Of a stretch of DNA of 64,000 nt, positions 15,482 through 32,719 are shown piece after piece. Numbering within the stretch: position 1 is the stretch's first letter; every line of letters begins with the position of its first letter. Location: contig JAIBAF010000002.1 of assembly GCA_019695335.1 (NCBI GenBank), forward strand, positions 64,474 to 128,473, read 5' to 3'. Source of the DNA: a bacterium. Lineage in GTDB: Bacteria; CLD3; SB21. The notes beneath the pieces are model-generated. The model was not told the origin of the DNA, ran no database searches, and was given only the letters and a program-made list of their open reading frames with translations. Made by a program: the position numbers and the translations under genes.

Positions 15482-15838
15482 ATGTTTGATTTCAAAGAAT
15501 GTGACGTAAATGAATTGGCAGACAAGCTCAATCTATCGACAAGGCAAATTCAAAGAATTGCATTATCCAGATTCAAAAAGCGACCTCATGCCTTTTTGGA
15601 ATCGTTGCGCCTCCATACGGCAATAAATGCTATTGTACATAGTAAACCTGTGTCGCTTGAAGCTGTAGCAAAATTTGCCGGTTTCAGAACGTACGATGCA
15701 TTTCGAAAATCTTTTCACCGGTGTTTTGGAATCGCCCCGTCAAAATGTAAAATCATTGCAGTTACTGCTCATGATAAATTCCAATTACTCAAGACATGGC
15801 AAAACAAAATCGAAAAGCGTTTTACTTTAAAGGAATAA
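15482..15838 (+). CDS. Small AraC/XylS-type HTH transcriptional regulator (DNA-binding domain only); candidate cluster regulator
   Basis: LADKLNLSTRQIQRI...FLE..RL..A...L......SL..VA...GF.....F.R.F....G..P AraC-type double-HTH pattern; AAGGAG-like RBS (tagggggcgttATG). Confidence 0.6.
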   Translation: MFDFKECDVNELADKLNLSTRQIQRIALSRFKKRPHAFLESLRLHTAINAIVHSKPVSLEAVAKFAGFRTYDAFRKSFHRCFGIAPSKCKIIAVTAHDKFQLLKTWQNKIEKRFTLKE

Positions 15839-18737: not shown

Positions 18738-18750
18738 ACTAAAAAAACCG

Positions 18751-18773
18751 ACTCTGAACTTGTTTCAGAGTCT
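18751..18773 (+). terminator. Perfect hairpin (GACTCTGAA-cttgt-TTCAGAGTC) between the two LanB halves; possible attenuator or partial terminator
   Basis: 9-bp perfect inverted repeat 14 nt after the stop codon; weak T-run after it. Confidence 0.4.
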
Positions 18774-18884
18774 CTAATTCTTCAGAATGGTATTGCACAG
18801 ACTCCTTCCGCCTCAGTGAATCGGAGTGATGAAAGTGTCTGCTATTCTGCAACCAAATAATTTTCAATTCTTAATTTTTAATTT

Positions 18885-19889: not shown

Positions 19890-19899
19890 GAAAAAACAC

Positions 19900-20125
19900 A
19901 ACAAAACTAAAAGGAGAGTGATGTCCCTTGAAGGTGTGACGTGATTTTAGCAGTTTAACAAATAACTAATTGTTTAACAATGGGGAAAATTATAATGGGA
20001 AGTTTCGTATTACAGTGATCGAGCCAGCAAGCATTGATCATTTATTAGTAATATGAACTTCCCGATATTAAGCTAATGAAAGCCAATAACATTAGCAATT
20101 CCCTGAATCTAAGGAGATTTCAGTC
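19900..20125 (+). promoter_or_regulatory. Conserved precursor-upstream element, copy 1: SD plus 7-codon mini-ORF (19921..19944, MSLEGVT), TATAAT box (19991..19996), 17/16-bp inverted repeat (19997..20063) 62 nt before the precursor ATG
   Basis: About 225 nt repeated with high identity upstream of all three precursor genes; the inverted repeat is GGGAAGTTTCGTATTAC ... GTAATATGAACTTCCC. Confidence 0.6.
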
Positions 20126-20428
20126 ATGGGAAAGAAATTAAAACTCAAACTCGAAGACTTGAAAGTCCAGAGCTTCGTAACGGCAGCCAAATTCATTGTC
20201 GGTGGTTTATTGCCGACCCATCCGGATGCATGCGGTACGAATACTTGCCAGCAATATACTGAGGTTGGTTGTGGTCCTACAATTGGATGTGAGTCAGCCC
20301 AATGCGGCGATACTGTGGGGTGTACCTATGGCGGTGAATATACTCTGTGTGGTTCTATTTGCCAAAATACAGGGAATTGTACAACCGAAGCAACTGCACA
20401 CACAGAATGTTCATGGCAGCAATGTTAA
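20126..20428 (+). CDS. RiPP precursor peptide 1 (100 aa): leader MGKKLKLKLEDLKVQSFVTAAKFIVGG, then a 73-aa core with 11 Cys and 16 Ser/Thr
   Basis: AAGGAG RBS 9 nt upstream; leader shared with two paralogs; GG cleavage motif; next to LanB, LanC and LanT. Confidence 0.8.
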   Translation: MGKKLKLKLEDLKVQSFVTAAKFIVGGLLPTHPDACGTNTCQQYTEVGCGPTIGCESAQCGDTVGCTYGGEYTLCGSICQNTGNCTTEATAHTECSWQQC

Positions 20429-20435
20429 CCAATCT

Positions 20436-20470
20436 GCGAGGTGTGGTAGTACTGCACCTCGCTATTTTTT
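20436..20470 (+). terminator. Rho-independent terminator (GCGAGGTG-loop-CACCTCGC followed by TATTTTTT)
   Basis: 8-bp GC-rich stem plus T-tract 8 nt after the precursor stop. Confidence 0.6.
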
Positions 20471-20509
20471 AACCCATTGGTGTTTCTGTAATACACAGGC
20501 AATAAAGAA

Positions 20510-22459
20510 ATGAAGTTATTAAATTTTCTATTTCTAGCGACTTTACTAATTGGAAGCGATATTGTTGCGCAAAAAAGCAATAATGAGAATTCTAACTACA
20601 AAAAAGTAATCGAACAATTAGATAGTTGTTTTCAAAAAAAATGCCTATCAGTAGACGAGCTAAAAAATTATGCTGCCGCGCATATTCATGAATATAAAAT
20701 CAAACTCATCACTTGGCGCCTTTTCGATAGACTGAGCGATGGGCATTTAAAAAAAGCCGAAAAAGCACTGGATATGGCCTTTCAGATGGATTTAAAAGAT
20801 AATGAGGCTTTGTTTCTTAAGGCCATTCTTGAAAAAGAAAAAGGAAATAATAATGCAGCAGAAATATTTAACAAGTTGATTGACAATGTCAAGAACACTT
20901 ACGGGTTCAAAAAGCCGATAAATGAACTTGCAGAAATATTTTTTGAAGAAGATCGCTATAAGGAGCTAATCGAGCTATTATCAAAATACAAACATGACTC
21001 TGAAAGCTTTGAAATTTTTTTCAATTCTTTGATAGCTGATGGAGATGAAATAAAAACAACAAAAGTTTTTTACGAGATTTTAGAAAACGCCCGAGATTCA
21101 TTATTCATAAATAGTTTTTACATGCAAGCAGAACCCATTGCTGAAAAAGATGAAACTGTAGCTTGGGCAGCTTTGAAATTGCCAAATGCAAAAATTTCTT
21201 TTTTAAAAAAATTCTGGCAAAAGCGAAATCCGACGTTAACTCGCGACAGTAATCCGCGGCTTGTCGAACACTATAAAAGGCTGCAGTACGCTCGACAATT
21301 TTATTATAAATTAGGAAATCCAGGTTATGACGACAGAGGATTGATCTATATTAGACGTGGGAAACCCGACCGATGGTATGTTAATGACGAATTAACAAAT
21401 CTCTCTTGGGTATATGAGGATGATAAAAACCCTGCACATTTCGATTTTGTAAGTTCGGAATTTGGAGAGTATAAATTGGGTAATATCGGTGGTAGTGTTG
21501 TAGATCGAGCGCATCTGCATCCTTTTTATCAAAAAATGGCACAAAAATATTTAATGTGGAATTTGGCAGCATCAAGAGACAAAAAGCGGCTAATGGAAGA
21601 AATCAATCAGCAAATGTCTGCCGAACTTATTCGGATGGAATTTTATGAATCAAAGAAGATATCTTATATTTTTAGTCCCAATACGCCGCATCTTCCTGTC
21701 AATATACGTTTTGCTTCATTTAAGAAAACCATCGATACAACGACACTTGATATTTCTATCGCAATTCCTGTTTCAGAGTTAATATTTCATCAGAATCAAT
21801 CGGAAATAACAGTGCGAATCAAAGCGTTTGACAGCGATTTTGTTGAACAAGAAACTCAAGGTAAAAATTTGACTTTAAGTTCACAATTTAAAAATGAGAT
21901 GCATCTTGTTAGTGCATTTTCGCTGAAATTAAAGCCCAATCGTTATCGTATCGCTTTAGAGGTTGCTAATAATAATGAGGAGAAGCAAGGGATTTATTAT
22001 TTCGATTTAGACGTACGTGATTTTCAAAGCAGAGAATTGATGGTGAGTGACATCGATTGGGCTACGCGAATAGAAAATTTAGACTATTACAGTGGCATAG
22101 TTAAAGAGCATGCAAATGTGAAGATAATTCCATATCCGTTTACCAAGTTCCAACATCATCAGACTCTGTCTTTGTATTACGAAATTTACAACCTGACTTT
22201 AGACAATAATGGCCATTCGCAATACGAAGTAAGCTACAGCATCAACCCCAAGAAGAATTTTTTTGGAAAATTATTCGGTGCTATCAAAAAATCAGTAAAC
22301 ATTACAACTCCCAAGCAAGGGTCCTCGATATTCGAATTTGAATATATCACTTTGGATTTAAGCAACCTAGAAAAAGGCGAGGCTGATTTCATATTGCGAG
22401 TTTACGACAAAATCTCAAAACAGCAGATAGATCATAGGGAAACTGTATTTATTGAGTAA
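20510..22459 (+). CDS. Secreted TPR-like / GWxTD-like domain protein (649 aa), paralog of 29069..31219
   Basis: Signal peptide MKLLNFLFLATLLIGSDIVAQ; central FWQKRNP...YKRLQYARQFYY...PGYDDRGLIYIRRGKPD resembles the GWxTD-domain signature as I remember it, which is uncertain. Confidence 0.5.
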   Translation: MKLLNFLFLATLLIGSDIVAQKSNNENSNYKKVIEQLDSCFQKKCLSVDELKNYAAAHIHEYKIKLITWRLFDRLSDGHLKKAEKALDMAFQMDLKDNEALFLKAILEKEKGNNNAAEIFNKLIDNVKNTYGFKKPINELAEIFFEEDRYKELIELLSKYKHDSESFEIFFNSLIADGDEIKTTKVFYEILENARDSLFINSFYMQAEPIAEKDETVAWAALKLPNAKISFLKKFWQKRNPTLTRDSNPRLVEHYKRLQYARQFYYKLGNPGYDDRGLIYIRRGKPDRWYVNDELTNLSWVYEDDKNPAHFDFVSSEFGEYKLGNIGGSVVDRAHLHPFYQKMAQKYLMWNLAASRDKKRLMEEINQQMSAELIRMEFYESKKISYIFSPNTPHLPVNIRFASFKKTIDTTTLDISIAIPVSELIFHQNQSEITVRIKAFDSDFVEQETQGKNLTLSSQFKNEMHLVSAFSLKLKPNRYRIALEVANNNEEKQGIYYFDLDVRDFQSRELMVSDIDWATRIENLDYYSGIVKEHANVKIIPYPFTKFQHHQTLSLYYEIYNLTLDNNGHSQYEVSYSINPKKNFFGKLFGAIKKSVNITTPKQGSSIFEFEYITLDLSNLEKGEADFILRVYDKISKQQIDHRETVFIE

Positions 22460-22573
22460 ATAATTATCCTATACCGGAAGGCAAGACGACATTAGAAGTC
22501 ACAGTCAAAGACTTGACTTCGAATCAGGAGACGGTATCAAGGCTTGGATTGAATATTAGCAATGACGAAAAAT

Positions 22574-22596
22574 AATGGTTCTGATAAAGAACCATT
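22574..22596 (+). terminator. Hairpin AATGGTTCT-gataa-AGAACCATT downstream of the GWxTD-like gene (no T-tract)
   Basis: 9-bp perfect inverted repeat. Confidence 0.3.
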
Positions 22597-22624
22597 ACAA
22601 CGACAAATGCAAAACTAGTTATAG

Positions 22625-22845
22625 AAAGGAGGATGATGCGTTTTGAAGGTGTAAAGTGATTCACGCAGTTTTAGCTAAAGTAACAATTTTTTTTAACAGC
22701 AGGAAAAATATAAATGGGAAGTTACGTATTACGGTGATCGAGCCAGCAAGCATTGATCATTTATTAGTAATACGAACTCCCCATTGTGAAGCTAATGAAA
22801 ACCAATAACATTAGCAATTCCTGAAAATTCAAGGAGATTTCAGTC
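22625..22845 (+). promoter_or_regulatory. Conserved precursor-upstream element, copy 2: mini-ORF 22633..22659 (MMRFEGVK) and inverted repeat 22716..22782
   Basis: Same architecture and spacing as copy 1 (63 nt from inverted repeat to ATG); TATAAAT box immediately before the repeat. Confidence 0.6.
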
Positions 22846-23130
22846 ATGGGTAAGAAATTAAAACTCAAACTCGAAGACTTGAAAGTACAGAGCTTTGTGA
22901 CGGTAGCCAAGAAACGGATCATGGGAGGCGCTGAGCAGACATTGACCGGTTGTCCTGACCCAACCAATCCTAATCTTGGATGCACTGAGGTTGGGTGCGA
23001 AACGGCGCAAGTCAATTGTACAGGTCCAACTTATACAATTGATTTATGGTGCCAGACAGGTTTGTGTACATACCAGCCATGTCCAAGTCAAGGTTCAGAC
23101 TGCACGATTGATTTAGCCTGTACCTGGTAA
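22846..23130 (+). CDS. RiPP precursor peptide 2 (94 aa): leader MGKKLKLKLEDLKVQSFVTVAKKRIMGG, then a 66-aa core with 9 Cys
   Basis: Shared leader and GG site; the core N-terminus TLTGCPDPTNPNLGCTEVGC is shared with precursor 3. Confidence 0.8.
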   Translation: MGKKLKLKLEDLKVQSFVTVAKKRIMGGAEQTLTGCPDPTNPNLGCTEVGCETAQVNCTGPTYTIDLWCQTGLCTYQPCPSQGSDCTIDLACTW

Positions 23131-23146
23131 ACGGTAATTACAAAAA

Positions 23147-23193
23147 GGAAAGCCTGTGTTCTGAACAGTTGAATTTAAGAGCCGGGCTTTCCC
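23147..23193 (+). terminator. Terminator-like structure (GGAAAGCC...GGCTTTCC with a nested TGTTC-t-GAACA), then an A/T-rich run
   Basis: Inverted repeats read from the sequence 16 nt after the precursor stop; long loop, so low confidence. Confidence 0.35.
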
Positions 23194-23294
23194 ATTATTT
23201 AAAATAAATGAAAAATAATACAATTTGGAACCCGTCGTATTCATATTTTTAGAGTAAACTCAAAGATTGATAAACGGAAGGTCTGTAAAAAAAA

Positions 23295-24269
23295 ATGATT
23301 CAATGGAATGAAAACAGACATTTACTTTTTTTATGTATTCTGTTTTTTTCATGTAGTGAAAAAAACATTTTACAATTAAAAATTGAAAAAATTGGTTATT
23401 GGAAGTTAAGCCCAAAGACTGTTGTCAAATTAAGTTATGATGCAAAACAAATTGCCGTCATTGACAGTGGCCAACTAGTATTGGTTGATATTCATGAGTT
23501 CAAAAATCAAACTCGGTTTATAGATGAATTAGCCATCATAGATGTCTGTTTTTCAAAAGATAACAAATATTTAATAACCCGGGATTCGGTTAGATTTAAT
23601 GTATTCGATAGAGAGCATTTAACGCTGATACATCGAATTGATGTAGATTCTAATAAGCCAGCGTCGAATTTTAGTAATGTAGAAGCTTTTTCAGATACAA
23701 CCATTTATACCTTAGTCGAAAAATTTGAATCGCCTGTTTATCGTAAACGAAGCGACAGGTTTTCATTATCTAAAATTGAGGTTTATGATGTGTTTCATAA
23801 AAAGACTATCGCTGTAATTTCCGACTCAACCGATCGAATTGTTTCGGTTAAAGCAAATTTTAAAACCGGAAAAGCGGTTACACTTTCAAACAACAATCAA
23901 ATCAAAATATGGAACTTTAAAACCAATCAATTGGAAGCAGTGATATCAGAAAACATGTTTTCAATGTATAGACCCATAATCAGCCGCTTGGGGAAGTATA
24001 TCGCCTATTTCGATATTAATAATAATATCACAATTTGGGATATTTCATTGAAAACAAAATTATCCTCATTCCATTTTCAAGAACCCTTCGTGTATAAAAT
24101 TAGTGATAACATTTTTCTTACGGTGACAAGAGGGAGTATTGGCGTGCATGAGATTGCTAAGTCTGAGTTTGATGTGATTGAACTGACCAGCGTTTCTGAA
24201 GGAGGAAATATTTTTTTACAATTTTCGAATAGCACTGTGGAGGCTATGAAAATTTCAAACCAATTTTAA
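23295..24269 (+). CDS. Hypothetical lipoprotein (324 aa), possibly a beta-propeller-like repeat protein
   Basis: Lipobox-like LCILFFSCSEKN; repetitive beta-rich sequence; occupies the slot after precursor 2. Confidence 0.45.
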   Translation: MIQWNENRHLLFLCILFFSCSEKNILQLKIEKIGYWKLSPKTVVKLSYDAKQIAVIDSGQLVLVDIHEFKNQTRFIDELAIIDVCFSKDNKYLITRDSVRFNVFDREHLTLIHRIDVDSNKPASNFSNVEAFSDTTIYTLVEKFESPVYRKRSDRFSLSKIEVYDVFHKKTIAVISDSTDRIVSVKANFKTGKAVTLSNNNQIKIWNFKTNQLEAVISENMFSMYRPIISRLGKYIAYFDINNNITIWDISLKTKLSSFHFQEPFVYKISDNIFLTVTRGSIGVHEIAKSEFDVIELTSVSEGGNIFLQFSNSTVEAMKISNQF

Positions 24270-24287
24270 AATATTAGAGATTTTTTA

Positions 24288-26171
24288 ATGAATCAAACCA
24301 GTAATAACAGTTCTTTAGAACTGGCGAGATTAAGTCGTTCTATTCTAGAAGCAGCGCAAGATGATATTTTCGGTATTAGCTGGAAGACGATGGCTTTACA
24401 AAACAGGATTATCAGTTGGAACACATCTGAAAGTTTATATTCAGGCACCGCGGGCATTGCACTTTTTTTATTAAACTATTATCGGCACTCCGGAAATCAG
24501 GAAAGCATTGAAGCTGTACGTAATGCGGCGAAATGGATCGAGCATCATTGCAAAGAATTGGACAGTGATTATTACGCCTTTTTTACCGGAAGAATGGGCA
24601 TCCCATATTTTTTATTAGAATTGCATAAAGAAATACGCGATGAGAGCTTATTACATTCTGCAATTTCAATTGCCAAAAAAAGCAAAGTAATGTTGGCTTC
24701 AAACCAACATGTATGCGATTTGATCAATGGATTTTCGGGAACCCTGTTAGGGTTATTGCACGTGTATCATGCCACACGTTCAGATGATATCGAAGATTTA
24801 GCCGACAGATTTGCTGAGAAATTGATCGAAGAGTGTTGGGTTGCCGAACATGGAGTCTATTGGGACCGTTCAGAACAAACGATCCGAGGGCTTTGTGGAT
24901 TTTCGCATGGCGCGGCCGGAATCGGTTTCGTTTTTCTTGAACTCGGGCGTTATTTTCAAAACGAAGCTTTTTATTGGTTAGCGAGAGAGGCGTTTAGATA
25001 TGAGAATTGTTATTTCAATGCGCAATGGAACAACTGGCCGGATTTTCGCAAAGGGATTTGGTTTGAAAAAGACGCCGAAGAATTTGAAAAGGCGTACAAA
25101 AGTAATAATATCGATTTTTTTACAACGCCTAGGGATTTCAGCGCCTGGTGCCATGGAGCAGCCGGTATCGGTTTATCGCGTTTGCATGCATGGAAAGTTT
25201 TGGGAGACAAAGAATATTTTCATGATTATGAGAATGCTGTAAAGAAAGTTCGTTCAGTAGATTTAGTATCGCGGCCTCAACGTTCTTTTACTTTGTGTCA
25301 TGGATCGGGCGGCAATGCCGATCTTCTGATTGAAGCCTATCGTTTAACCGGAAATGAGTCATACCTGCAGGATGCTTATCGAATTTCAGAACTGGCGCTT
25401 CAATCAAGGCAGGAAATAGGTAAGTACATCTCAGGGTTTGCTGATGCAGGCAAAGAAGAGGATTTAAGCCTTTTTATGGGGAATGCCGGTATCGGTTATT
25501 TTTATTTAAGATTATTAAATCCGGAGATCAAGTCAATTTTAATGCCCGTTGTTGAAAGTAATGGAGTCAAGCCCAATCCAAAATATAAAACGCTCAACAT
25601 TTCTTTATCGCAATTACAAAAGCGAATGTGCGCGAAAATTTATCGGCGAACGACTTTTTTTATTGAACAATCGTTACCGGAATTTTTCAAAGAAAACAGT
25701 TCTTTGAATTCATGCTTACAGGATATAGAAAAGTTTTCTGTCCAAAATACAGACTCACGGTTAGATGAAGTCTTCAAAATTGAGAAAACAGCCAGAGAAT
25801 TGAATTTAGCTGTCGAAAGTTTTGCTTTACTTGAAGCTGAGAATCAATACCGACCAAAAAATTATGACGGAGATACCAAGTTAAAACTATCGCCAAGAGT
25901 GAGGTTGCTTACTACCAATTCAAATGAATCATCAGAAAAATTCATTGTACTTTATGTTACAATAGAAGGCGTTAAAGAAACGCTTGTTGAACAATTCACT
26001 GGATTAGTTTTATCGGCTTTCAGCGAGCCTTGTTCATCGAAAGCCGCTTTAACTAAAATTTTCGATATGATTGAATCGGAAAACCATCACGAACTCAAAC
26101 AGATCGTGATTCAGCAGATCAATGACGCTTTTTTAGCGGGGATATTAATTATTGCTGACACACATTTTTAA
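24288..26171 (+). CDS. LanC-like lanthipeptide cyclase with a ~210-aa C-terminal extension of unknown function
   Basis: Repeated GxAGI motifs (SGTAGIALFLL, HGAAGIGFVFL, GNAGIGYFYL); zinc-ligand motifs AWCHGAAGIG and LCHGSGGNADLL; 627 aa versus about 410 for canonical LanC. Confidence 0.8.
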   Translation: MNQTSNNSSLELARLSRSILEAAQDDIFGISWKTMALQNRIISWNTSESLYSGTAGIALFLLNYYRHSGNQESIEAVRNAAKWIEHHCKELDSDYYAFFTGRMGIPYFLLELHKEIRDESLLHSAISIAKKSKVMLASNQHVCDLINGFSGTLLGLLHVYHATRSDDIEDLADRFAEKLIEECWVAEHGVYWDRSEQTIRGLCGFSHGAAGIGFVFLELGRYFQNEAFYWLAREAFRYENCYFNAQWNNWPDFRKGIWFEKDAEEFEKAYKSNNIDFFTTPRDFSAWCHGAAGIGLSRLHAWKVLGDKEYFHDYENAVKKVRSVDLVSRPQRSFTLCHGSGGNADLLIEAYRLTGNESYLQDAYRISELALQSRQEIGKYISGFADAGKEEDLSLFMGNAGIGYFYLRLLNPEIKSILMPVVESNGVKPNPKYKTLNISLSQLQKRMCAKIYRRTTFFIEQSLPEFFKENSSLNSCLQDIEKFSVQNTDSRLDEVFKIEKTARELNLAVESFALLEAENQYRPKNYDGDTKLKLSPRVRLLTTNSNESSEKFIVLYVTIEGVKETLVEQFTGLVLSAFSEPCSSKAALTKIFDMIESENHHELKQIVIQQINDAFLAGILIIADTHF

Positions 26172-26177
26172 ATTTAC

Positions 26178-28388
26178 ATGAGCAAACATACAATGATCTT
26201 TAACTTCCCATTTTCAAAACAGCTAGACCGTATGGATTGCGGGCCTACGTGTCTTCGCATGATCGCACGGCACTACGGCAAATCTTACCCCATTCAATAT
26301 CTTCGTGAAAAATGCTTTATTACCAGAGAAGGCTCTTCGCTCCTTGGCATCAGCGATGCAGCCGAATCGATCGGTTTTCGGACGCTATCGATCAAAGTGA
26401 ATTATGAAAAATTAGACGATGACGTACCGCTTCCATGTATCGTCCACTGGAACCAAAACCATTTTGTGGTAGTGTACAAGATAAACCGTAACAAAGTTTA
26501 TGTAGCTGATCCGGCTCACGGGCTTTTGAAGTATAAGAAAGAAGAATTTCTTAAAAGCTGGCTCAGTGTAGAATCGAACGGCCGGCAGGAAGGCGTTGCA
26601 CTTGTGTTGGAGCCTTCTCCCGATTTCTATCATGCCGATGAAGGTGTTACTCAAGACCGGACGAAAATGTCTTTTTTATTGACGTATCTCAAACCGTATA
26701 AAAAATTCTTTGTTCAGATATTTCTCAGCATGCTGATCGGCAGCCTTTTAGGCTTGATCTTTCCTTTTTTGACGCAAGCCATCGTCGATTTTGGAATCAA
26801 TAATCAAAACATCGGATTTGTCTATACGATCTTAATCGCACAACTCATGCTTTTCACCGGCCGTACGGCCGTCGAATTTATCCGAAGCTGGATTTTCCTG
26901 CACATTGGAACACGAATCAACGTGACGATCATTTCGGATTTTTTGATCAAACTGATGAAATTGCCGATGCCATTTTTTGACACCAAAATGATCGGCGATT
27001 TATTGCAGCGCATCGGCGATCACACGCGCATCCAGCAGTTTCTTACTTCCACAACCATCAATTCGTTATTTGCCATCATCAATTTGTTGATCTTCGGCTT
27101 GGTGCTGGCCCTCTATAGCTCATACATTTTTGGCGTGTTTTTTATCGCATCGGTTTTATCCACGTCCTGGATACTTGTTTTCATGAAGAAAAGGAAAGAA
27201 ATCGATTATAAACGATTCAATCAATTATCTCAAAATCAAAGCCAGTTGATCCAATTGATCACCGGTATGCAGGAAATCAAGCTCAATGGAGCGGAAAAAC
27301 AAAAGCGATGGAATTGGGAAAATGTCCAGGCAAAGTTATTCAAAATCAGTGTCAGCTCTCTCACTTTAGATCAAACCCAGCAAGCGGGTATGCTCTTTAT
27401 CAATGAAACGAAAAATATTTTCATATCTTTTCTTGCTGCAAAGGAAGTGATCGACGGCAACATGACTTTGGGCATGATGATGGCCGTGCAATATATCATC
27501 GGCCAATTGAACGCTCCTATCGGGCAATTAATCGGATTTGTTCAGACCGCTCAAGACGCCAAAATCAGTCTTGAACGTATGGGCGAGATTCACAACAAAA
27601 AAAACGAAGAAGACCCTGAGACGGCTGGTTTAAATGCGTTACCAACCGCTCGTACCATCAGTGTGAATAACTTGTCTTTTCAATATGAGGGACCGCATTC
27701 GGAATTTGTTCTCAAAGATATTTCATTAGCCGTACCGGAAGGAAAAGTGACGGCGATCGTTGGAACCAGTGGAAGCGGCAAAACGACGCTGATGAAATTA
27801 TTTTTGAAGTTTTACGAGCCCGTTCAGGGGAATATTTTTTTGGGAGGAATTGATTTACAGAAAATAAGCGCCCGGCTTTGGCGCCAGAAATGCGGTGTGG
27901 TCATTCAAGACGGATTTATTTTCTCGGATACGATTGCCAATAATATCGCTCTCGGGCATGAACGCATCGATCGTCAACGCGTGGAGGAAGCGGCTCATAT
28001 TGCCAATATTGACGATTTTATCGAAACGCTGCCTCTGGGTTACAACACAAAAATCGGTTCGGAAGGACACGGTCTAAGCCAGGGACAAAGGCAGCGGATT
28101 CTGATTGCAAGGGCTGTGTACAAAAATCCGGAATTTATCTTTTTTGATGAAGCGACCAGCGCGTTGGATGCTAATAATGAACGAACAATCATCGATAATC
28201 TGCAAAAATTCTTTCAAGGAAAAACCGTTGTGGTGATTGCCCACCGGCTCAGCACGGTCAAGAACGCCGATCAAATTATCGTTTTGGAAAAAGGCCGGTT
28301 GATCGAGTCGGGAAGCCACTCCGAATTGGCCGACATTCGCGGCGCCTATTTTCATCTCGTGAAAAATCAATTGGAATTGGGAAGTTAA
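26178..28388 (+). CDS. Bacteriocin/lanthipeptide ABC exporter with N-terminal C39 peptidase domain (LanT/SunT type)
   Basis: C39 catalytic region MDCGPTCLRMIARHYGK and the HWNQNHFVVVY His; 6-TM domain; Walker A GTSGSGKTT, signature LSQGQRQRILIARA, Walker B IFFDEATSALD. Confidence 0.9.
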   Translation: MSKHTMIFNFPFSKQLDRMDCGPTCLRMIARHYGKSYPIQYLREKCFITREGSSLLGISDAAESIGFRTLSIKVNYEKLDDDVPLPCIVHWNQNHFVVVYKINRNKVYVADPAHGLLKYKKEEFLKSWLSVESNGRQEGVALVLEPSPDFYHADEGVTQDRTKMSFLLTYLKPYKKFFVQIFLSMLIGSLLGLIFPFLTQAIVDFGINNQNIGFVYTILIAQLMLFTGRTAVEFIRSWIFLHIGTRINVTIISDFLIKLMKLPMPFFDTKMIGDLLQRIGDHTRIQQFLTSTTINSLFAIINLLIFGLVLALYSSYIFGVFFIASVLSTSWILVFMKKRKEIDYKRFNQLSQNQSQLIQLITGMQEIKLNGAEKQKRWNWENVQAKLFKISVSSLTLDQTQQAGMLFINETKNIFISFLAAKEVIDGNMTLGMMMAVQYIIGQLNAPIGQLIGFVQTAQDAKISLERMGEIHNKKNEEDPETAGLNALPTARTISVNNLSFQYEGPHSEFVLKDISLAVPEGKVTAIVGTSGSGKTTLMKLFLKFYEPVQGNIFLGGIDLQKISARLWRQKCGVVIQDGFIFSDTIANNIALGHERIDRQRVEEAAHIANIDDFIETLPLGYNTKIGSEGHGLSQGQRQRILIARAVYKNPEFIFFDEATSALDANNERTIIDNLQKFFQGKTVVVIAHRLSTVKNADQIIVLEKGRLIESGSHSELADIRGAYFHLVKNQLELGS

Positions 28389-28467
28389 ACTCGGGTGTTG
28401 AAAATTGAATTTAGTGAGTAAGTGGTATAGTCTTCGTCAGAGCTATTGACGAAGAAAATAAAAAAAC

Positions 28468-28690
28468 TAAATCTTCGAAAGGAGCGTGATGTCCCTTGAA
28501 GGTGTGAAGTGATTTCAGCAGTTATCATAAACTAATTCATTAACAACGGGGAAAATTATAAAGGGAAGTTACGTATTACCGTGATCGAGCCTCGCTGGGT
28601 TTTGATCATTTAAGTAATACGAACTTCCCGATATTAAGCTAATGAAAACATCTAACATTAGCAATTCCCCGAGAATATTGGAGATTAAAA
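28468..28690 (+). promoter_or_regulatory. Conserved precursor-upstream element, copy 3: mini-ORF 28489..28512 (MSLEGVK) and inverted repeat 28563..28629
   Basis: Same architecture; 61 nt from inverted repeat to ATG; TATAAA box before the repeat. Confidence 0.6.
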
Positions 28691-28999
28691 ATGGGAAAGA
28701 AATTAAAACTCAAACTCGAAGACTTGAAAGTCCAAAGCTTCGTGACATCGTCCAAGAAACAGTTATTAGGGGGCGCAGAACCGACGTTGACAGGCTGTCC
28801 CGATCCAACCAATCCTAATCTTGGCTGTACGGAAGCTGGCTGTCCCACCATGCAAGTTGCGTGTGGTGGTGGAACTGAATTCACATGTACCGGAATCTAT
28901 GATTGCCGGACTGAAGCATGCTCTTATCAACAGTCTGGCTGTGGAACCTGTTATACGGATTGCGCTTGTCAAACAGGCGGCGGAACTGCGTGTTATTAG
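28691..28999 (+). CDS. RiPP precursor peptide 3 (102 aa): leader MGKKLKLKLEDLKVQSFVTSSKKQLLGG, then a 74-aa core with 12 Cys
   Basis: Shared leader and GG site; the core is Cys/Gly/Thr-rich. Confidence 0.8.
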   Translation: MGKKLKLKLEDLKVQSFVTSSKKQLLGGAEPTLTGCPDPTNPNLGCTEAGCPTMQVACGGGTEFTCTGIYDCRTEACSYQQSGCGTCYTDCACQTGGGTACY

Positions 29000-29017
29000 G
29001 TTGCAAATAACTGATAA

Positions 29018-29052
29018 TGGGATTCCATTGCAAAATGGAATCCCACTTTTTA
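29018..29052 (+). terminator. Rho-independent terminator (GGGATTCCATT-gcaaa-AATGGAATCCC followed by ACTTTTTT)
   Basis: 11-bp perfect stem plus T-tract 18 nt after the precursor stop; the next gene starts 17 nt later. Confidence 0.65.
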
Positions 29053-29068
29053 AGGGGTAAATAATTTT

Positions 29069-31219
29069 ATGAAGTATTATTTTTTTGTAATCGTCTATTT
29101 GTTTTTATCAATTAACAGATCAATTTATTCTCAACAGGACTCAAATTTGACTGTTCAAGAACTTGAAACACAAGCAGCTTCGGGCAATCGAGAAATCAGG
29201 TTACAACTGGCTCATCACTACCTGAAAAGCGAACAATTTGACAAAATCGTTCAGCTTTATAAAACTGATTACAAAAAAAAGCAGTGCACTTCCGATGAAT
29301 ATAAGATTTACGCCATTGCGCGTTTGCAAAGTTACAGAAATCTCGTTATTACGCGTAAATTAATTGATCGCTTGATTGGCGATGATTTACGCCATGCCAA
29401 ATTAGCGTTGGCTGAAGCCTTAAAACTTGACGGCCATGACATAGAAGCAAAATTTTTTACGGGTGTATTGAATCGGATTATTGGAAAAGATGAAGAGGCA
29501 TTAAAAATCCTTTACGACGTTTTTGAGGAAGACTGCAATTATCAAACGTATGCGTTCACCGAGGTCGCATCTGAACTCAGTCTCATTTTTATAAAAAAGG
29601 GCGATTATGATGCGGTAAAAAAATTGCATGAAAAACAGCTTACTACTTATCCGAAAGACGCATGGTCTAAAATACAATTGGCCGTAGCCTATGGCGAATT
29701 AGATAGCGCCGATATTATGATGAAACTATTTTTCGAAGGACTTGATCAATTGATCGATCAGAAACAACTGTTTCAATTGTTTGAAGATTGTTCTATCATA
29801 GCAACAACAGATGAGAAAAAAAATTGGAAAGAATTGAATACAAACAATGATAAAAAAGATTTTTTAAGAAGTTTTTGGAAAAAACGCGATCCTAATCCAT
29901 TTGACGATATCAACGAAGCATTAATTCAATATTTTAAACGTGTCCATTACGCTAAAGCTATGTATCCAAAACCTCAATCCCCTGGATTTGACGATCGGGG
30001 ACTGATTTATGTGAGGTTTGGAAAACCGGATTATATTTTTTATGGGAGCAGCGATGTCAATATTCGCGAAAACGAATCATGGATTTATTATAACCTCGAA
30101 GGAGGCCTGCATTTTGATTTTGTCCTAATCGGGACTTCCTATGAATTGCGCCCTCTTGGCGATGCCTCGATCATGACTCAAGCGATCATGGGTGAAAAGA
30201 AATTATCCGATTTGTATAGAGAACGAAGTCATCTGGATCCTTATTACACAAACATTCAATTTAAATTCGAAACGGGCCGCTACAATTCGTCAACGATTGA
30301 AAGCAGTTTTGAGTACCGGCGGGATTATGAAAAAATGTTGGAGTATTCTCAAAAACAATATTTTGCGTTTAATTCGTCCACAGCGCCCCTTTTTGTTAAT
30401 ACACGATATGCAACATTTAAAGACTCCGATCAGAAATCACGGTTGGATTTTTATTATATATTGCCTTATTCACAAATGAATTTTTTAGACACGCTTGGAG
30501 CTTTTAAATGGTCAAAGAATTTTGCTGCTATAAAAATCTTTGATTATAAAAATTATCGTGACGTTGTAACACTGGAGCGGGAGAATCTGATTTTTGCAGA
30601 TAGTATGCAGCAAAAAACTTACGGTTTGGTTGACGAATTCCGGTATTCTTTAAATCCAGGAAAATATATCCTTGCCTTTCAAATCAGTAACAATGACAAA
30701 CAAAAATTCAATGTGTTCCAATATGAAGTGTTTGTCAGAGATTACTCTGCGGATACATTGACTATCAGTGACATTCAATTGGCGGCATTTATAAGCGAAA
30801 ACGATTCGACACAAATTCAGTTTATCAAACCCCATTCGGCCGTAAAAGTAATACCCAATGCAGCGGCTCATATTACGCGTTCATTGCCGTTGTCGATTTA
30901 TTTTGAGATTTACAATCTGACGCTCGATAATGACGGACGCAATTCATATGAAATATCCTATCGGTTCAAACAGCCAGAAAATTCAAGGAGCGGTTTATTC
31001 GCCAGAATTAAAAAATTATTTATTAACGAAAAAAAATCTTCTATTGCTTCAACGACGATGTTGAGCGGTAATTCTACTACAGAAAGGTCATACATTAGTT
31101 TGGATGTCAGCGAATTGAATGGAGGGCTCATCGATTTGGAAATTCGCGTCAAAGACCTGATTACCAATATAGAAACTTATTCTAACGTTGAGTTAAATTT
31201 AGTGGATAAGAAGAAATGA
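29069..31219 (+). CDS. Secreted TPR-like / GWxTD-like domain protein (716 aa), paralog of 20510..22459
   Basis: Signal peptide; FWKKRDPNPFDD...YFKRVHYAKAMY...SPGFDDRGLIYVRFGKPD; same C-terminal architecture (…LSLYYEIYNLTLDN…) as the paralog. Confidence 0.5.
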   Translation: MKYYFFVIVYLFLSINRSIYSQQDSNLTVQELETQAASGNREIRLQLAHHYLKSEQFDKIVQLYKTDYKKKQCTSDEYKIYAIARLQSYRNLVITRKLIDRLIGDDLRHAKLALAEALKLDGHDIEAKFFTGVLNRIIGKDEEALKILYDVFEEDCNYQTYAFTEVASELSLIFIKKGDYDAVKKLHEKQLTTYPKDAWSKIQLAVAYGELDSADIMMKLFFEGLDQLIDQKQLFQLFEDCSIIATTDEKKNWKELNTNNDKKDFLRSFWKKRDPNPFDDINEALIQYFKRVHYAKAMYPKPQSPGFDDRGLIYVRFGKPDYIFYGSSDVNIRENESWIYYNLEGGLHFDFVLIGTSYELRPLGDASIMTQAIMGEKKLSDLYRERSHLDPYYTNIQFKFETGRYNSSTIESSFEYRRDYEKMLEYSQKQYFAFNSSTAPLFVNTRYATFKDSDQKSRLDFYYILPYSQMNFLDTLGAFKWSKNFAAIKIFDYKNYRDVVTLERENLIFADSMQQKTYGLVDEFRYSLNPGKYILAFQISNNDKQKFNVFQYEVFVRDYSADTLTISDIQLAAFISENDSTQIQFIKPHSAVKVIPNAAAHITRSLPLSIYFEIYNLTLDNDGRNSYEISYRFKQPENSRSGLFARIKKLFINEKKSSIASTTMLSGNSTTERSYISLDVSELNGGLIDLEIRVKDLITNIETYSNVELNLVDKKK

Positions 31220-32517
31220 AAAACCATATTTCTACGTTGCAATCCGAACAAACAAAAAGTGATGAAATTCAAGAAGTGTTGCACTTCGTTCCATCCTGGA
31301 CGATCCGTTGGGGCATTACGGCTATTTTTTTTACCGTTTTGATGATTATATGTGTAGCTTGGTACATTCGCTATCCGGATATGGTTACATCACGCATTAC
31401 TTTGACCAGCGTCTCTCCCCCCGTCACACTCATCGCCCGCACCAACGGTAAACTAACCGAATTAAATGTCCATGACGGCGATTCCGTTTATACCGGATCC
31501 GTCCTCGCTGTGATTGAAAATTCTTCCAATTCTTCGGAAGTATCAGCGCTAAAAGAACAACTAATCCGATTTAAACCTTATTTGGATAATCCTCTCGATG
31601 TCCGTTTTGAATTTAACCGCTTCTATCAGTTAGGCGAACTTCAAACGCCGTATTCGGAACTTCTTCGCAAGTGGGAAGATTACAAATCTTTTCATTCTTT
31701 TAACTACCATCCCCGTAAAATCCAAACGATCAGGACACAGATCACCGTGTTGAATGAACTCAACAGCCGGTTAGAAAAACAAAAAAACTTATTGGAGGAA
31801 GAGGTCAAGCTCGCTGAGAAAAATCTTAACACCGGAAAAAGCCTTCGTGAAAAAGGAGTCGCCTCGGAAATCGAGCTATCCAATTACGAAAGCATTTATC
31901 TTCAGAAAAAATACGGTTATGAAAACGCCGAAGCTTCGCTAATCAACAATGCGCTCCAAATCTCGGAATATGAAAAAAATATATTGGATCTGACACGCCA
32001 ATTTGAAGAGGAGAAACTATCCAAAACGGTGGGCATGCAGGAAGCGTATAAATTCCTTCTTGCGTCAATCGATAATTGGGAACAGCGCTACGTATTGAAA
32101 GCGCCTATTGGCGGCAAAGTTTCATTTTTCAAAGTGTGGAGCGTCAATCAATATGTACAAGCCAATGATCTCGTTTTTACCATTGTCGGAGATCACGCAA
32201 CGCCGATAGGTAAAATTTATCTTCAGACGGCAGGATTGGGCAAAATTAAAGAAGGCCAAAAAGTTCAGATTAAGCTGGATAATTACCCCTATCATGAATT
32301 TGGGGTCTTAAACGGTACGGTCGAATCTATTGCACCGGTGGCGACGAATAATGAGTATGCAATCAATATCGCTCTTGCACCGGAGAATAGGACAACTTAT
32401 CACAAAGCCATTACTTTTTCGGAAGGTATGCAAGGCACGGCTGAAATTATCACCGATGACTTGAGATTGCTCGAAAGAATTTTTTATCAAATGCGAGCGT
32501 TGACTTCATCGAACTAA
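31216..32517 (+). CDS. HlyD-family membrane-fusion / bacteriocin secretion accessory protein; 4-nt ATGA overlap with the upstream gene
   Basis: N-terminal TM anchor, long coiled-coil region, C-terminal beta-barrel-like domain; adjacent to a LanT-type exporter. Confidence 0.75.
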   Translation: MKNHISTLQSEQTKSDEIQEVLHFVPSWTIRWGITAIFFTVLMIICVAWYIRYPDMVTSRITLTSVSPPVTLIARTNGKLTELNVHDGDSVYTGSVLAVIENSSNSSEVSALKEQLIRFKPYLDNPLDVRFEFNRFYQLGELQTPYSELLRKWEDYKSFHSFNYHPRKIQTIRTQITVLNELNSRLEKQKNLLEEEVKLAEKNLNTGKSLREKGVASEIELSNYESIYLQKKYGYENAEASLINNALQISEYEKNILDLTRQFEEEKLSKTVGMQEAYKFLLASIDNWEQRYVLKAPIGGKVSFFKVWSVNQYVQANDLVFTIVGDHATPIGKIYLQTAGLGKIKEGQKVQIKLDNYPYHEFGVLNGTVESIAPVATNNEYAINIALAPENRTTYHKAITFSEGMQGTAEIITDDLRLLERIFYQMRALTSSN

Positions 32518-32719
32518 CCTCATTTTTAAATTCCGCAATTTTAAATTCTGCAATCTACTTTGTGATTTTATGCACGAAGTATATGTTTTCTCAAAACATA
32601 CTTGCTATTCAGTTCTTACAATTGTACTTTAGGCCACGATTGTCTGTTGACAGATTTTCGTTATAATTTTGAGATTATTGACCTCACGTTTAGATCACTA
32701 AACGTGTTATTTTAAAAGG

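What the first reader, a model, noticed from the sequence alone, without database searches (positions are those of the whole stretch)
20436..31219. Modular cassettes: precursor, then intrinsic terminator, then a secreted-protein gene (two GWxTD-like paralogs and a lipoprotein)
Each precursor gene is followed within 8-18 nt by a hairpin (20436..20470, 23147..23193 and 29018..29052; the first and third have T-tracts). A gene for an exported protein follows immediately each time. For precursors 1 and 3 these are paralogous 649- and 716-aa proteins with signal peptides, an N-terminal TPR-like helical region and a central block ending P-G-(Y/F)-D-D-R-G-L-I-Y-(I/V)-R-x-G-K-P-D. That block resembles the GWxTD domain signature. 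For precursor 2 it is a 324-aa lipoprotein. Terminators after structural genes (as after nisA) typically attenuate read-through into downstream genes. The dedicated secreted partners could be immunity or self-protection proteins, extracellular maturation or leader-trimming factors, or receptor-like components. None of these roles is standard for class-I clusters.
Basis: partly seen in the sequence, partly recalled or inferred. Interest (0 to 1): 0.6.

Follow-up and report, generated by a model that had tools for sequence, protein, structure and literature searches.

The report
Lanthipeptide precursors paired with GWxTD proteins
In a lanthipeptide (modified antimicrobial-type peptide) gene cluster of an uncultured Bacteroidota-like bacterium, precursor genes are each followed by a hairpin and a large secreted protein of the uncharacterised GWxTD family. 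The pair recurs and is swapped as a unit in related bacteria, which gives the first functional clue for that family.

Summary
Window 15846-32517 is a pinensin-type class I lanthipeptide cluster: split LanB, LanC, C39-ABC exporter, HlyD and three precursors. Each precursor has a conserved ~220-nt upstream element and is followed by a stable hairpin. Hairpins 1 and 3 are canonical terminators.

Two downstream genes are full-length paralogs (31% identity) that pass the curated GWxTD HMM cut-offs. An AlphaFold2 model shows signal peptide, TPR, GWxTD domain and two beta-sandwiches, with no catalytic fold.

The GWxTD family is large (more than 12,000 50%-identity clusters) and mostly sits at unrelated housekeeping loci. 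None of 79 genome loci had lanthipeptide genes. However, precursor-then-GWxTD recurs in five further contigs (L005, L099, L103, L105, L107).

In L107, a strain with 96%-identical flanks, the precursor's C-terminal tail, its hairpin and an extra GWxTD-family gene are exchanged as one block, and the old partner is kept. This resembles toxin-tail/immunity cassettes.

The third partner, a beta-propeller lipoprotein, is a conserved cluster accessory. Elsewhere it follows an S41 peptidase rather than a precursor.

Best reading, inferred and not shown: GWxTD proteins are cognate extracytoplasmic binding partners, probably for self-protection. Their expression would be set by read-through of the precursor terminator.

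The parts
12464..14770 (+). Secreted WD40 beta-propeller protein (768 aa). Possibly the upstream edge of the cluster.
   Evidence: WD40 and beta-propeller Pfam hits. N-terminal signal-like sequence. Membership in the cluster is not shown.
15482..15838 (+). AraC-type HTH protein (118 aa) directly upstream of lanB. Candidate regulator.
   Evidence: PF12833 HTH_18, E 1.7e-14.
15846..18737 (+). LanB N-terminal (glutamylation) half of a split dehydratase.
   Evidence: PF04738, E 1.2e-37.
18885..19889 (+). LanB C-terminal (elimination) half.
   Evidence: PF14028, E 2.7e-43; TIGR03891.
19910..20125 (+). Conserved upstream element, copy 1. Contains an SD-like box with a mini-ORF (19921-19944), a long hairpin, a second hairpin and the AAGGAG Shine-Dalgarno.
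   Evidence: 84-85% DNA identity to copies 2 and 3. Also conserved in L103. Consensus fold. No Rfam hit.
20126..20428 (+). Precursor 1 (100 aa): GG leader plus a 73-aa Cys/Thr-rich core.
   Evidence: NF038180, 33.3 bits against a cut-off of 24.
20436..20470 (+). Intrinsic terminator 1.
   Evidence: 12-bp stem plus T6. dG -20.4 kcal/mol, z -4.2.
20510..22459 (+). GWxTD-family secreted protein 1 (649 aa).
   Evidence: TIGR04514, 51.2 bits against 28. Sister to the L103 cluster-linked copy, 34% identity, 100/100 bootstraps.
22572..22598 (.). Hairpin after the first GWxTD gene, just before upstream element copy 2.
   Evidence: 11-bp stem. The scan lists it on the - strand, where the T-run lies.
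22625..22845 (+). Conserved upstream element, copy 2.
22846..23130 (+). Precursor 2 (94 aa).
   Evidence: NF038180, 28.9 bits.
23147..23193 (+). Hairpin 2. Stable, but without a U-tract.
   Evidence: dG -23.4 kcal/mol, z -4.7. Not picked up by the terminator scan.
23295..24269 (+). Beta-propeller lipoprotein (324 aa). Conserved cluster accessory.
   Evidence: Beta-propeller Pfam hits. Homologs in L106 (54% identity) and L103 (22% identity, E 7e-19), both after an S41 peptidase.
24288..26171 (+). LanC cyclase (LanM-cyclase-like type).
   Evidence: PF05147, E 4.6e-63. Best NCBIfam hit is the LanM C-terminal region.
26178..28388 (+). C39-peptidase ABC exporter (LanT type; cleaves at the GG site).
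   Evidence: PF03412, PF00664 and PF00005.
28478..28690 (+). Conserved upstream element, copy 3.
28691..28999 (+). Precursor 3 (102 aa). Its last 15 codons (from 28952) lie inside the block that is exchanged in strain L107.
   Evidence: NF038180, 30.3 bits. Breakpoint mapped.
29018..29052 (+). Intrinsic terminator 3.
   Evidence: 12-bp stem plus T5. dG -19.6 kcal/mol, z -2.8.
29069..31219 (+). GWxTD-family secreted protein 2 (716 aa).
   Evidence: TIGR04514, 74.1 bits. AF2 pLDDT 88. dN/dS 0.20 against the MAG_43 ortholog.
31216..32517 (+). HlyD-type membrane-fusion protein. Overlaps the second GWxTD gene by 4 nt.
   Evidence: PF13437 and PF16576.
32556..32706 (+). Two terminator-like hairpins closing the cluster.
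   Evidence: 32556-32581 and 32685-32706. RNase Y follows at 32720.

Best explanation
The locus is a pinensin-type class I lanthipeptide cluster built from three precursor-led transcription units. Each unit starts with a conserved ~220-nt promoter/5' leader element and a conserved GG leader. A hypervariable Cys/Thr-rich core of about 70 aa follows, and then a stable hairpin.

Inferred step: the hairpin ends most transcripts, giving abundant short precursor mRNA. A minority reads through into the downstream genes.

In two units the first downstream gene encodes a secreted, non-enzymatic protein of the GWxTD family (signal peptide, TPR superhelix, GWxTD alpha/beta domain, two beta-sandwiches). 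Shown by comparison: precursor followed by a GWxTD-family gene is a conserved unit. The C-terminal tail of the core and the adjacent GWxTD gene are inherited and exchanged together.

Inferred step: each GWxTD protein is the cognate extracytoplasmic binding partner of the peptide encoded just upstream. Most likely it is a periplasmic or cell-surface self-protection (immunity-like) protein that sequesters the mature peptide through its variable tail. This would be analogous to a bacteriocin/immunity gene pair.

The beta-propeller lipoprotein after precursor 2 is a separate conserved accessory. Elsewhere it is paired with an S41 peptidase. It is not a partner specific to one precursor.
For: Cluster identity and hairpins.

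Seven precursor-then-GWxTD-family pairs occur in six contigs:
- Window, two pairs.
- L005: hairpin plus T8, and the next upstream element follows the gene.
- L099: the gene overlaps the precursor stop by 10 nt and LanC follows.
- L103: 10-bp GC-rich stem read from the sequence, extended to 12 pairs in the RNAfold output; LanB-C, LanC and S41 peptidases are nearby.
- L105: LanC follows.
- L107.

The proteins have diverged to 28-43% identity (global-alignment matrix; BLASTP and tblastn local values reach 44%) and the downstream neighbours differ (LanC, HlyD, or the next precursor element), yet the adjacency is kept.

L107 against the window: the flanks are 90% and 96% identical. Between them a 2.05-kb block replaces window 28952-29155. 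The block carries the last ~20 precursor codons, its own hairpin (z -6.4) and an extra GW-family gene. The old partner is kept 2 nt downstream.

GW identity correlates with identity of the core's C-terminal 40 aa (Mantel r 0.49, exact p 0.012). The correlation with the N-terminal 24 aa is weaker (r 0.24, p 0.12).

The AF2 model is confident (pLDDT 88) and shows only binding-type modules. No His or Cys is invariant.

dN/dS is 0.20.

No LanI, LanFEG or LanP homolog was found among the ORFs of 15482-32517 that were scanned. The GW proteins and the lipoprotein are therefore the only unassigned products.

Only 39 and 16 nt separate terminators 1 and 3 from the next start codon. That leaves no room for a separate promoter.
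Against: - There is no experimental or binding evidence.
- The family is mostly encoded at housekeeping loci without any lanthipeptide genes.
- Cluster-linked members are not monophyletic. GW2's closest relative, L008b (49% identity), is not in a cluster.
- Known lantibiotic immunity proteins are small lipoproteins or ABC pumps, not 650-720-aa soluble TPR proteins.
- Co-inheritance of the core tail and the GW gene could be simple physical linkage.
- Precursor 2 has no GW partner.
- L099 has no hairpin and L105 has only a weak one.
- Terminators 1 and 3 look strong, so read-through may be very low.
- Related Bacteroidota-type clusters (L087, L089, L092) lack GW genes.
Confidence: 0.45

Rival explanations
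1. Maturation or handling factor. The GWxTD protein is a peptide-specific extracytoplasmic chaperone or adaptor. It would present the exported ~70-aa modified peptide to a protease for trimming (for example an S41 tail-specific peptidase), or help it fold or be released. This would resemble the TPR adaptors NlpI and LbcA, which work with the S41 proteases Prc and CtpA.
For: S41 peptidases sit inside the related clusters L103 and L106. One lies directly after a precursor. The cores are about three times longer than the 22-aa pinensins (pinensin length from my own knowledge), which suggests further proteolysis. The TPR and beta-sandwich architecture fits an adaptor. A tail-specific adaptor would also co-vary with the tail.
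Against: No S41 or other peptidase was found in the window's cluster among the ORFs scanned. In L103 and L106 the S41 gene is adjacent to the beta-propeller lipoprotein rather than to the GW gene. Keeping the displaced GW2 ortholog in L107 is more typical of orphan immunity genes than of adaptors.
Confidence: 0.2
2. No peptide-specific role. GWxTD proteins are ordinary envelope proteins of these bacteria, with several paralogs per genome. Precursor modules, which are mobile through their conserved upstream element and leader, simply landed in front of them. The adjacency persists by descent, and block exchange reflects where the homologous flanks lie.
For: Most family members are at core-genome loci with conserved synteny. 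Context A lies next to a CDPS operon. Context B is upstream of ribH and a PorZ-like gene. Tandem arrays occur without peptides. Cluster-linked copies are polyphyletic. The lipoprotein case shows that a precursor can sit in front of an unrelated accessory gene.
Against: All seven cluster-embedded GW genes that were examined lie immediately after a precursor, despite rearranged neighbours and 28-44% protein identity. In L099 the two genes overlap, which suggests translational coupling. In L107 a new tail arrives together with a new GW gene. Polyphyly argues for repeated recruitment.
Confidence: 0.2
3. Receptor or uptake component. The peptides act as signals or metallophores, and the GWxTD protein captures the cognate peptide outside the cytoplasm for sensing or re-import.
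For: Pinensins bind Zn(II) with nanomolar affinity (PMC13532221). The cores are very Cys-rich. An AraC-type regulator and a conserved upstream element suggest regulated expression, possibly autoinduced.
Against: The cluster has no sensor kinase, TonB-dependent receptor or importer. In mature lanthipeptides the cysteines are expected to be consumed in thioether rings. There is no precedent.
Confidence: 0.08

Closest known systems
Pinensin-type / Bacteroidota class I lanthipeptide clusters (precursor family I_17 of Walker et al. 2020, PMC7268733)
   Same: Split LanB, and a LanC related to LanM cyclase domains. The leader has the LxLxKx5L-type motif and ends in GG. A C39-ABC exporter is present, and there are several precursors per cluster.
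   Different: The cores after the GG site are about 70 aa. A ~220-nt conserved element precedes each precursor. Each of two precursors is followed by a hairpin and a GWxTD-family gene. No paper in the searchable library mentions GWxTD.
Terminator after the structural gene in lantibiotic operons such as nisA and spaS (own knowledge)
   Same: A stable GC-rich hairpin with a U-tract lies directly after the precursor gene, and the downstream genes have no promoter space of their own.
   Different: The arrangement is repeated three times in one cluster. Termination efficiency is unmeasured. Hairpin 2 lacks a U-tract. In relative L099 the genes overlap instead.
Bacteriocin/immunity pairs and polymorphic-toxin C-terminal/immunity cassettes (CDI, Rhs, colicins), including orphan immunity genes (own knowledge)
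   Same: The variable C-terminal part of the peptide gene and the next gene are exchanged as one block between near-identical strains. The displaced partner is kept downstream. The partner family occurs as many fast-diverging paralogs and tandem arrays.
   Different: The 'toxin' is a RiPP core rather than a protein domain. The partner is a 600-720-aa secreted TPR protein. Neither toxicity nor protection has been shown.
LanI lipoproteins (NisI, SpaI) and the S41 nisin-resistance protease NSR (own knowledge)
   Same: All are extracytoplasmic proteins encoded in or near lantibiotic clusters that act on the peptide outside the cell. S41 peptidases occur in the related clusters L103 and L106.
   Different: There is no sequence or fold match to LanI families. 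The GW proteins have type I signal peptides rather than lipoboxes. The window's cluster has no S41 gene.
GWxTD domain family (TIGR04514 / PF20094), function unknown
   Same: Both window proteins pass the curated cut-offs and share the full-length architecture with more than 1,000 relatives at E <= 1e-30.
   Different: The literal motif reads G(Y/F)DDRG. These copies are embedded in a RiPP cluster. One linked member (P0026) has lost the motif region altogether.

Membership tests
Class I lanthipeptide cluster, pinensin type | LanB dehydratase, here split into a glutamylation part and an elimination part | tested here: met
   PF04738, E 1.2e-37 (15846-18737). PF14028, E 2.7e-43 (18885-19889)..
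Class I lanthipeptide cluster, pinensin type | Stand-alone LanC cyclase | tested here: met
   PF05147, E 4.6e-63 (24288-26171)..
Class I lanthipeptide cluster, pinensin type | Precursor with a pinensin-family leader ending in GG and a Cys plus Ser/Thr-rich core | tested here: met
   NF038180 is above its cut-off for all three precursors. GG sits at residues 26-28. Precursor 1's core has 11 Cys and many Ser/Thr, counted by hand from the sequence; the other two cores are also Cys-rich but were not counted.
Class I lanthipeptide cluster, pinensin type | C39-peptidase ABC exporter for GG cleavage | tested here: met
   PF03412, E 4.8e-38, plus ABC domains (26178-28388)..
Class I lanthipeptide cluster, pinensin type | The product actually carries (methyl)lanthionine rings | not testable with these tools
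   Needs mass spectrometry or NMR of the peptide.
GWxTD domain family (TIGR04514 / PF20094) | HMM score above the curated cut-off | tested here: met
   TIGR04514: 51.2 and 74.1 bits against 28. PF20094: 29.9 and 41.4 bits against 26.9..
GWxTD domain family (TIGR04514 / PF20094) | Literal GWxTD motif | tested here: inconclusive
   The motif position reads GYDDRG (GW1) and GFDDRG (GW2). D, R and G are invariant in the clade. The W is replaced by Y or F, as in all close relatives.
Rho-independent terminator | GC-rich stem, short loop and a U-tract directly 3' of the stem | tested here: met
   Hairpins 1 and 3. Hairpin 2 has the stem but no U-tract, so it does not meet the definition.
Rho-independent terminator | Partial termination in vivo (attenuation) | not testable with these tools
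   Needs RNA-seq, Term-seq or a reporter assay.
LanI-type lantibiotic immunity protein | Sequence or fold similarity to NisI/SpaI-type lipoproteins | tested here: not met
   No Pfam or NCBIfam LanI-type hit for the 649-, 324- or 716-aa proteins. Foldseek against PDB returns only TPR and generic tandem beta-sandwich matches.
LanI-type lantibiotic immunity protein | Confers protection against the cognate peptide | not testable with these tools
   Needs expression and challenge assays.
Toxin C-terminus / immunity cassette logic | The variable end of the effector gene and the adjacent gene are exchanged together between close strains, and displaced partners are retained | tested here: met
   L107 against the window: 90% and 96% identical flanks, a 2.05-kb replaced block, and the GW2 ortholog kept. 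Mantel r 0.49, p 0.012. This is one strain pair and seven gene pairs only.
S41 protease with TPR adaptor (Prc-NlpI, CtpA-LbcA) | An S41 peptidase encoded with, or acting with, the TPR protein | tested here: inconclusive
   No S41 gene was found in the window's cluster. S41 genes are present in L103 and L106, but there they lie next to the lipoprotein.

The most novel reading that the evidence does not exclude
The precursors behave like polymorphic toxins, with a conserved N-terminal core and a swappable C-terminal tail. GWxTD proteins would then be a previously unrecognised class of large extracytoplasmic, peptide-specific immunity (or capture) proteins. On this reading, the thousands of 'orphan' GWxTD paralogs and tandem arrays across Bacteroidota, KSB1, Latescibacterota, Gemmatimonadota, Calditrichota and related phyla would form a standing defensive repertoire against lanthipeptide-like peptides made by neighbours.
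Probability: 0.18. Interest if true: 0.8.

Novelty: new variant of a known kind. Interest (0 to 1): 0.6.

Why it matters
GWxTD is a large domain family (more than 12,000 50%-identity clusters in the library searched). It has no known function and no detectable solved structural relative, and no paper in the searchable library mentions it. A conserved precursor/GWxTD gene pair that is exchanged as a block gives a concrete, testable hypothesis: cognate binding of a lanthipeptide tail.

It also bears on an open question for Gram-negative lanthipeptide producers, namely how they protect themselves or handle their peptides outside the cytoplasm. None of the usual LanI, LanFEG or LanP genes were found here.

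The cassette design could be useful for engineering or mining. It consists of a conserved upstream element and leader, a swappable core tail, a hairpin and a partner gene. The partner gene could serve as a genomic marker for new long-core lanthipeptides.

Tried and rejected
- Rfam scan of 19800-29100 at E <= 1: no family for the upstream element or the hairpins.
- Literature search for 'GWxTD': 0 papers. Papers on pinensin and Bacteroidota lanthipeptides mention no such partner.
- Word-indexed homolog search found only 4-9 relatives. The exhaustive profile search was needed.
- Genome scan for relatives: 79 loci, none with LanB, LanC or precursors except a fragment of the same species. No neighbour gene is conserved across the family.
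- Metagenome scan with the leader pattern: 13 loci, none with a GWxTD gene.
- PDB sequence search: TPR hits only.
- Foldseek against PDB with the full model: TPR and generic tandem beta-sandwich hits only (RbmA, factor XIII barrels, VPS26/arrestin), at low TM-scores.
- Foldseek against PDB with the GWxTD domain alone: nothing below E 0.3. The YbjP/TolC-lipoprotein hits at E ~1 were rejected as noise.
- Considered and rejected that the GW proteins are enzymes. No invariant His or Cys, no peptidase or transglutaminase signature, and no catalytic fold.
- Considered and rejected that the cassettes arose by recent duplication of whole modules. The upstream element and leader are 78-85% identical at the DNA level, whereas the two GW proteins are only 31% identical.
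- Considered that the lipoprotein is precursor 2's partner. Rejected because its homologs follow S41 peptidases.
- Covariation support for the upstream hairpins is weak. Most pairs are invariant, so an RNA structure cannot be separated from a DNA operator.
- No sigma-70-type or Bacteroidota-type promoter could be assigned with confidence (and inspection).

Full report
**1. Observation**

The region lies inside a class I lanthipeptide cluster on the + strand.

| Coordinates | Product | Evidence |
|---|---|---|
| 15846-18737 | LanB N-terminal half | PF04738 |
| 18885-19889 | LanB C-terminal half | PF14028 |
| 20126-20428 | Precursor 1 | NF038180 |
| 20510-22459 | 649-aa protein (GW1) | TIGR04514, PF20094 |
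| 22846-23130 | Precursor 2 | NF038180 |
| 23295-24269 | 324-aa protein | beta-propeller Pfam hits |
| 24288-26171 | LanC | PF05147 |
| 26178-28388 | C39-peptidase ABC exporter | PF03412, ABC domains |
| 28691-28999 | Precursor 3 | NF038180 |
| 29069-31219 | 716-aa protein (GW2) | TIGR04514, PF20094 |
| 31216-32517 | HlyD-type protein | PF13437, PF16576 |

All three precursors pass NCBIfam NF038180 'pinensin family lanthipeptide' leader and carry a GG site at residues 26-28.

Hairpins 1 and 3 are the two longest-stemmed terminator-like sites in 18 kb, each with a 12-bp stem followed by T6 or T5. Hairpin 2 is as stable but has no U-tract. Fold z-scores are -4.2, -4.7 and -2.8.

The 649-aa and 716-aa proteins are 31% identical over their whole length (E 2e-81). 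Both pass the curated cut-offs of TIGR04514 and PF20094.

**2. The module is larger than described**

About 220 nt upstream of each precursor ATG, plus the leader-coding part, is 78-85% identical among the three copies. DNA similarity collapses inside the core-coding part.

The same element precedes two precursors in a different genome, L103. It contains:
- an SD-like box with a mini-ORF;
- a long hairpin, GGGAAGT..CGTATTAC...GTAATACG.ACTTCCC;
- a second hairpin, GCTAATG...CATTAGC;
- a strong AAGGAG ribosome-binding site.

Rfam has no match. The pairs hardly vary, so an RNA structure cannot be told apart from a protein-binding palindrome. An AraC-type HTH gene sits just upstream of lanB.

Each precursor therefore heads a sub-operon:
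- precursor 1, then GW1;
- precursor 2, then lipoprotein, LanC and LanT;
- precursor 3, then GW2 and HlyD.

Only 39 and 16 nt separate terminators 1 and 3 from the next start codon. Downstream expression must therefore come from read-through. This is an inference, not a measurement.

**3. What the partner proteins are**

An AlphaFold2 model of the 716-aa protein is confident (pLDDT 88, pTM 0.79).

| Residues | Module |
|---|---|
| N-terminus | signal peptide |
| 29-255 | TPR superhelix |
| ~259-430 | alpha/beta GWxTD domain |
| 440-716 | two beta-sandwich domains |

- Foldseek against PDB finds only TPR proteins and generic tandem beta-sandwiches.
- The GWxTD domain modelled alone (pLDDT 85) has no PDB neighbour below E 0.3.
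- A PDB sequence search finds only TPR proteins.
- Family-invariant residues (D, R, G, P, W, Y and similar) include no His or Cys.

Nothing suggests an enzyme.

The 324-aa protein is a WD40-like beta-propeller with a lipobox-like N-terminus.

**4. Is the coupling real?**

*Family-wide, no.* An exhaustive profile search finds 12,196 representative proteins at E <= 1e-3 and 1,079 at E <= 1e-30.
- Seventy-nine genome loci were retrieved, from uncultured Bacteroidota, KSB1, Zhuqueibacterota, Gemmatimonadota, Latescibacterota, Calditrichota, Zixibacteria and Rhodothermales.
- None has LanB, LanC or a precursor within 10 kb, apart from a fragment of the same species.
- Among 97 family genes examined, including the two in the window, only the two window genes have a leader-like Cys-rich ORF upstream.
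- Close relatives sit in two conserved housekeeping contexts: next to a CDPS operon, or upstream of ribH and a PorZ-like gene.
- Tandem arrays are common, with up to six copies.
- Thirteen metagenomic loci with LKVQSFVT-type leaders carry no GWxTD gene.

*Within one lineage, yes.* The pair recurs in five further contigs.

| Contig | Arrangement |
|---|---|
| L005 | precursor, hairpin plus T8, GW (43% to GW2), then the start of another upstream element |
| L099 | precursor overlapping the GW start by 10 nt, then LanC |
| L103 | LanB-C, precursor, LanC, S41 peptidase, lipoprotein homolog, precursor, hairpin, GW (34% to GW1), then another precursor followed by an S41 peptidase |
| L105 | precursor, GW, LanC |
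| L107 | see section 5 |

That makes seven pairs in six contigs. The proteins have diverged to 28-44% identity and the downstream neighbours differ.

Cluster-linked copies are not one clade. GW1 groups with the L103 copy in 100/100 bootstraps. GW2 groups with the non-cluster copy L008b and with L099 in 100/100 bootstraps. This suggests repeated movement into or out of clusters.

GW2 is under purifying selection (dN/dS 0.20 against the MAG_43 ortholog).

**5. The most telling comparison**

L107 comes from a strain whose GW2 ortholog and HlyD region are 96% identical in DNA to window 29156-32501. Its leader and N-terminal core are 90% identical to window 28723-28951.

Between these flanks, window 28952-29155 is replaced by 2.05 kb with no DNA similarity. 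The replaced block holds:
- a different precursor tail, VGPCGSLDCVSFGRPDNCTY instead of YTDCACQTGGGTACY, with the breakpoint after Cys87;
- its own 16-bp hairpin (z -6.4);
- an additional family member, P0026. It keeps the TPR and beta-sandwich parts, but its GWxTD motif region is lost.

The old GW2 ortholog follows 2 nt later.

Across the seven pairs, GW identity tracks identity of the last 40 core residues (Mantel r 0.49, exact p 0.012). It tracks the first 24 residues less well (r 0.24, p 0.12).

The cores are mosaics. Two N-terminal types combine with several C-terminal types, and the C-terminal type travels with the GW clade. Precursor 3 and the L099 precursor share a tail type, and their GW proteins are sisters. 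The same holds for precursor 1 and the L103 precursor. L005 is an exception.

**6. The third 'cassette'**

The lipoprotein has homologs in L106 (54% identity) and L103 (22% identity, E 7e-19). Both directly follow an S41 peptidase rather than a precursor. It is a conserved accessory of this cluster family. Its position after precursor 2 looks incidental.

**7. Mechanism**

*Shown:*
- cluster type;
- hairpins;
- paralogy and family membership;
- predicted architecture;
- recurrence of the pair;
- block exchange between close strains.

*Inferred:*
- The hairpins act as leaky terminators. They would yield abundant precursor mRNA and low read-through.
- Each GWxTD protein is exported and binds the mature peptide made from the gene just upstream, through the variable tail.

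I favour a self-protection (immunity-like) role, at 0.45, for three reasons:
- a variable effector end with its adjacent gene, plus a retained orphan, is the signature of bacteriocin and polymorphic-toxin immunity modules;
- the cluster has no other immunity candidate;
- the family's many fast-diverging paralogs and arrays fit a specificity-diversified binder.

Rivals:
- a tail-specific maturation adaptor or chaperone, possibly working with S41 peptidases (0.2);
- a hitch-hiking envelope protein with no peptide-specific role (0.2);
- a receptor or uptake component for a signalling or metal-binding peptide (0.08). Pinensins bind Zn(II) with nanomolar affinity (PMC13532221).

**8. Comparison with what is known**

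The cluster matches the Bacteroidota class I type described by Walker et al. 2020 (PMC7268733): split LanB, LanM-like LanC, an LxLxKx5L leader with GG, and C39-ABC export.

The following appear to be new:
- the conserved upstream element;
- the ~70-aa mosaic cores;
- the precursor/GWxTD pair with its cassette exchange.

No paper in the searchable library mentions GWxTD.

The GW proteins are members of the GWxTD family by HMM. They are not members of any LanI family. The analogy with immunity proteins is functional only, and it is untested.

**9. Verdict**

This is a new variant of a known kind of system, and it gives a useful, testable lead on a large uncharacterised protein family. Interest 0.6.

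Noticed in passing
window 19910-20125, 22625-22845, 28478-28690; L103 3745-3970 and 13120-13348: A ~220-nt non-coding element precedes every precursor and is 78-85% identical among the three window copies. It is also conserved in a genome whose GW protein is only 34% identical. It folds into a long hairpin plus a second hairpin. It has no Rfam match and almost no covariation, so an RNA structure cannot be separated from a DNA operator.
   Followed up: partly
window 19921-19944 (and the equivalent positions in copies 2 and 3): A mini-ORF (MSLEGVT*) sits behind an AAAGGAG box at the 5' end of the upstream element. In L103 the equivalent ORF runs 42 codons through the hairpin. The conserved CCCTTGAAGG box is predicted to pair with the precursor start-codon region, which may mean translational control.
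   Followed up: no
L107 230-2280 versus window 28952-29155: Between strains with 96%-identical flanks, the last ~20 precursor codons, the hairpin and an extra GW-family gene are exchanged as one block. The old GW gene is retained downstream.
   Followed up: yes
L107 353-2179 (P0026): This cluster-linked family member keeps the TPR and double beta-sandwich parts but has lost the DDRG/GWxTD motif region. The eponymous motif may therefore be dispensable for the cluster-linked role.
   Followed up: partly
L103 6241-8511 and 13615-15843; L106 61-2337: S41 (tail-specific) peptidases are encoded inside related lanthipeptide clusters. One lies directly after a short precursor, and two lie directly before the beta-propeller lipoprotein. 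The window's cluster has none.
   Followed up: partly
window 12464-14770 and 15482-15838: A secreted 768-aa WD40 protein and an AraC-type HTH protein lie just upstream of lanB. They may belong to the cluster, and the HTH protein is a candidate regulator of the three conserved upstream elements.
   Followed up: no
window 20000-26000 versus the flanks: The cluster has lower G+C (0.35-0.39) than the flanking housekeeping genes (0.42-0.46). This is compatible with horizontal acquisition.
   Followed up: no
window 29069-29146: The public annotation of this protein (P0001, 690 aa) starts 26 codons later and drops the signal peptide. All homologs have one, so the 716-aa reading is more likely correct.
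   Followed up: partly
L001, L008, L009, L011, L013, L020, L029 (context A); L010, L012, L014-L019, L053 (context B): Non-cluster GWxTD genes of the same clade sit in two conserved contexts. In context A the gene is divergent from an operon with a cyclodipeptide synthase, an SSF transporter and a CxxCxxCC protein. In context B it overlaps an unknown ~317-aa gene upstream of ribH and a PorZ-like T9SS gene.
   Followed up: partly
L071 3-13900; L083 8520-15019; L084 6127-12580: Tandem arrays of three to six divergent GWxTD paralogs, all with signal peptides, occur in Latescibacterota, Rhodothermales and Bacteroidetes MAGs. In L071 the array lies next to two ABC exporters.
   Followed up: no
window 20109-20125, 22829-22845, 28679-28690: The precursor genes carry a strong AAGGAG Shine-Dalgarno sequence, although the nearest relatives are labelled Bacteroidota, a phylum that mostly lacks SD-led initiation (own knowledge).
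   Followed up: no
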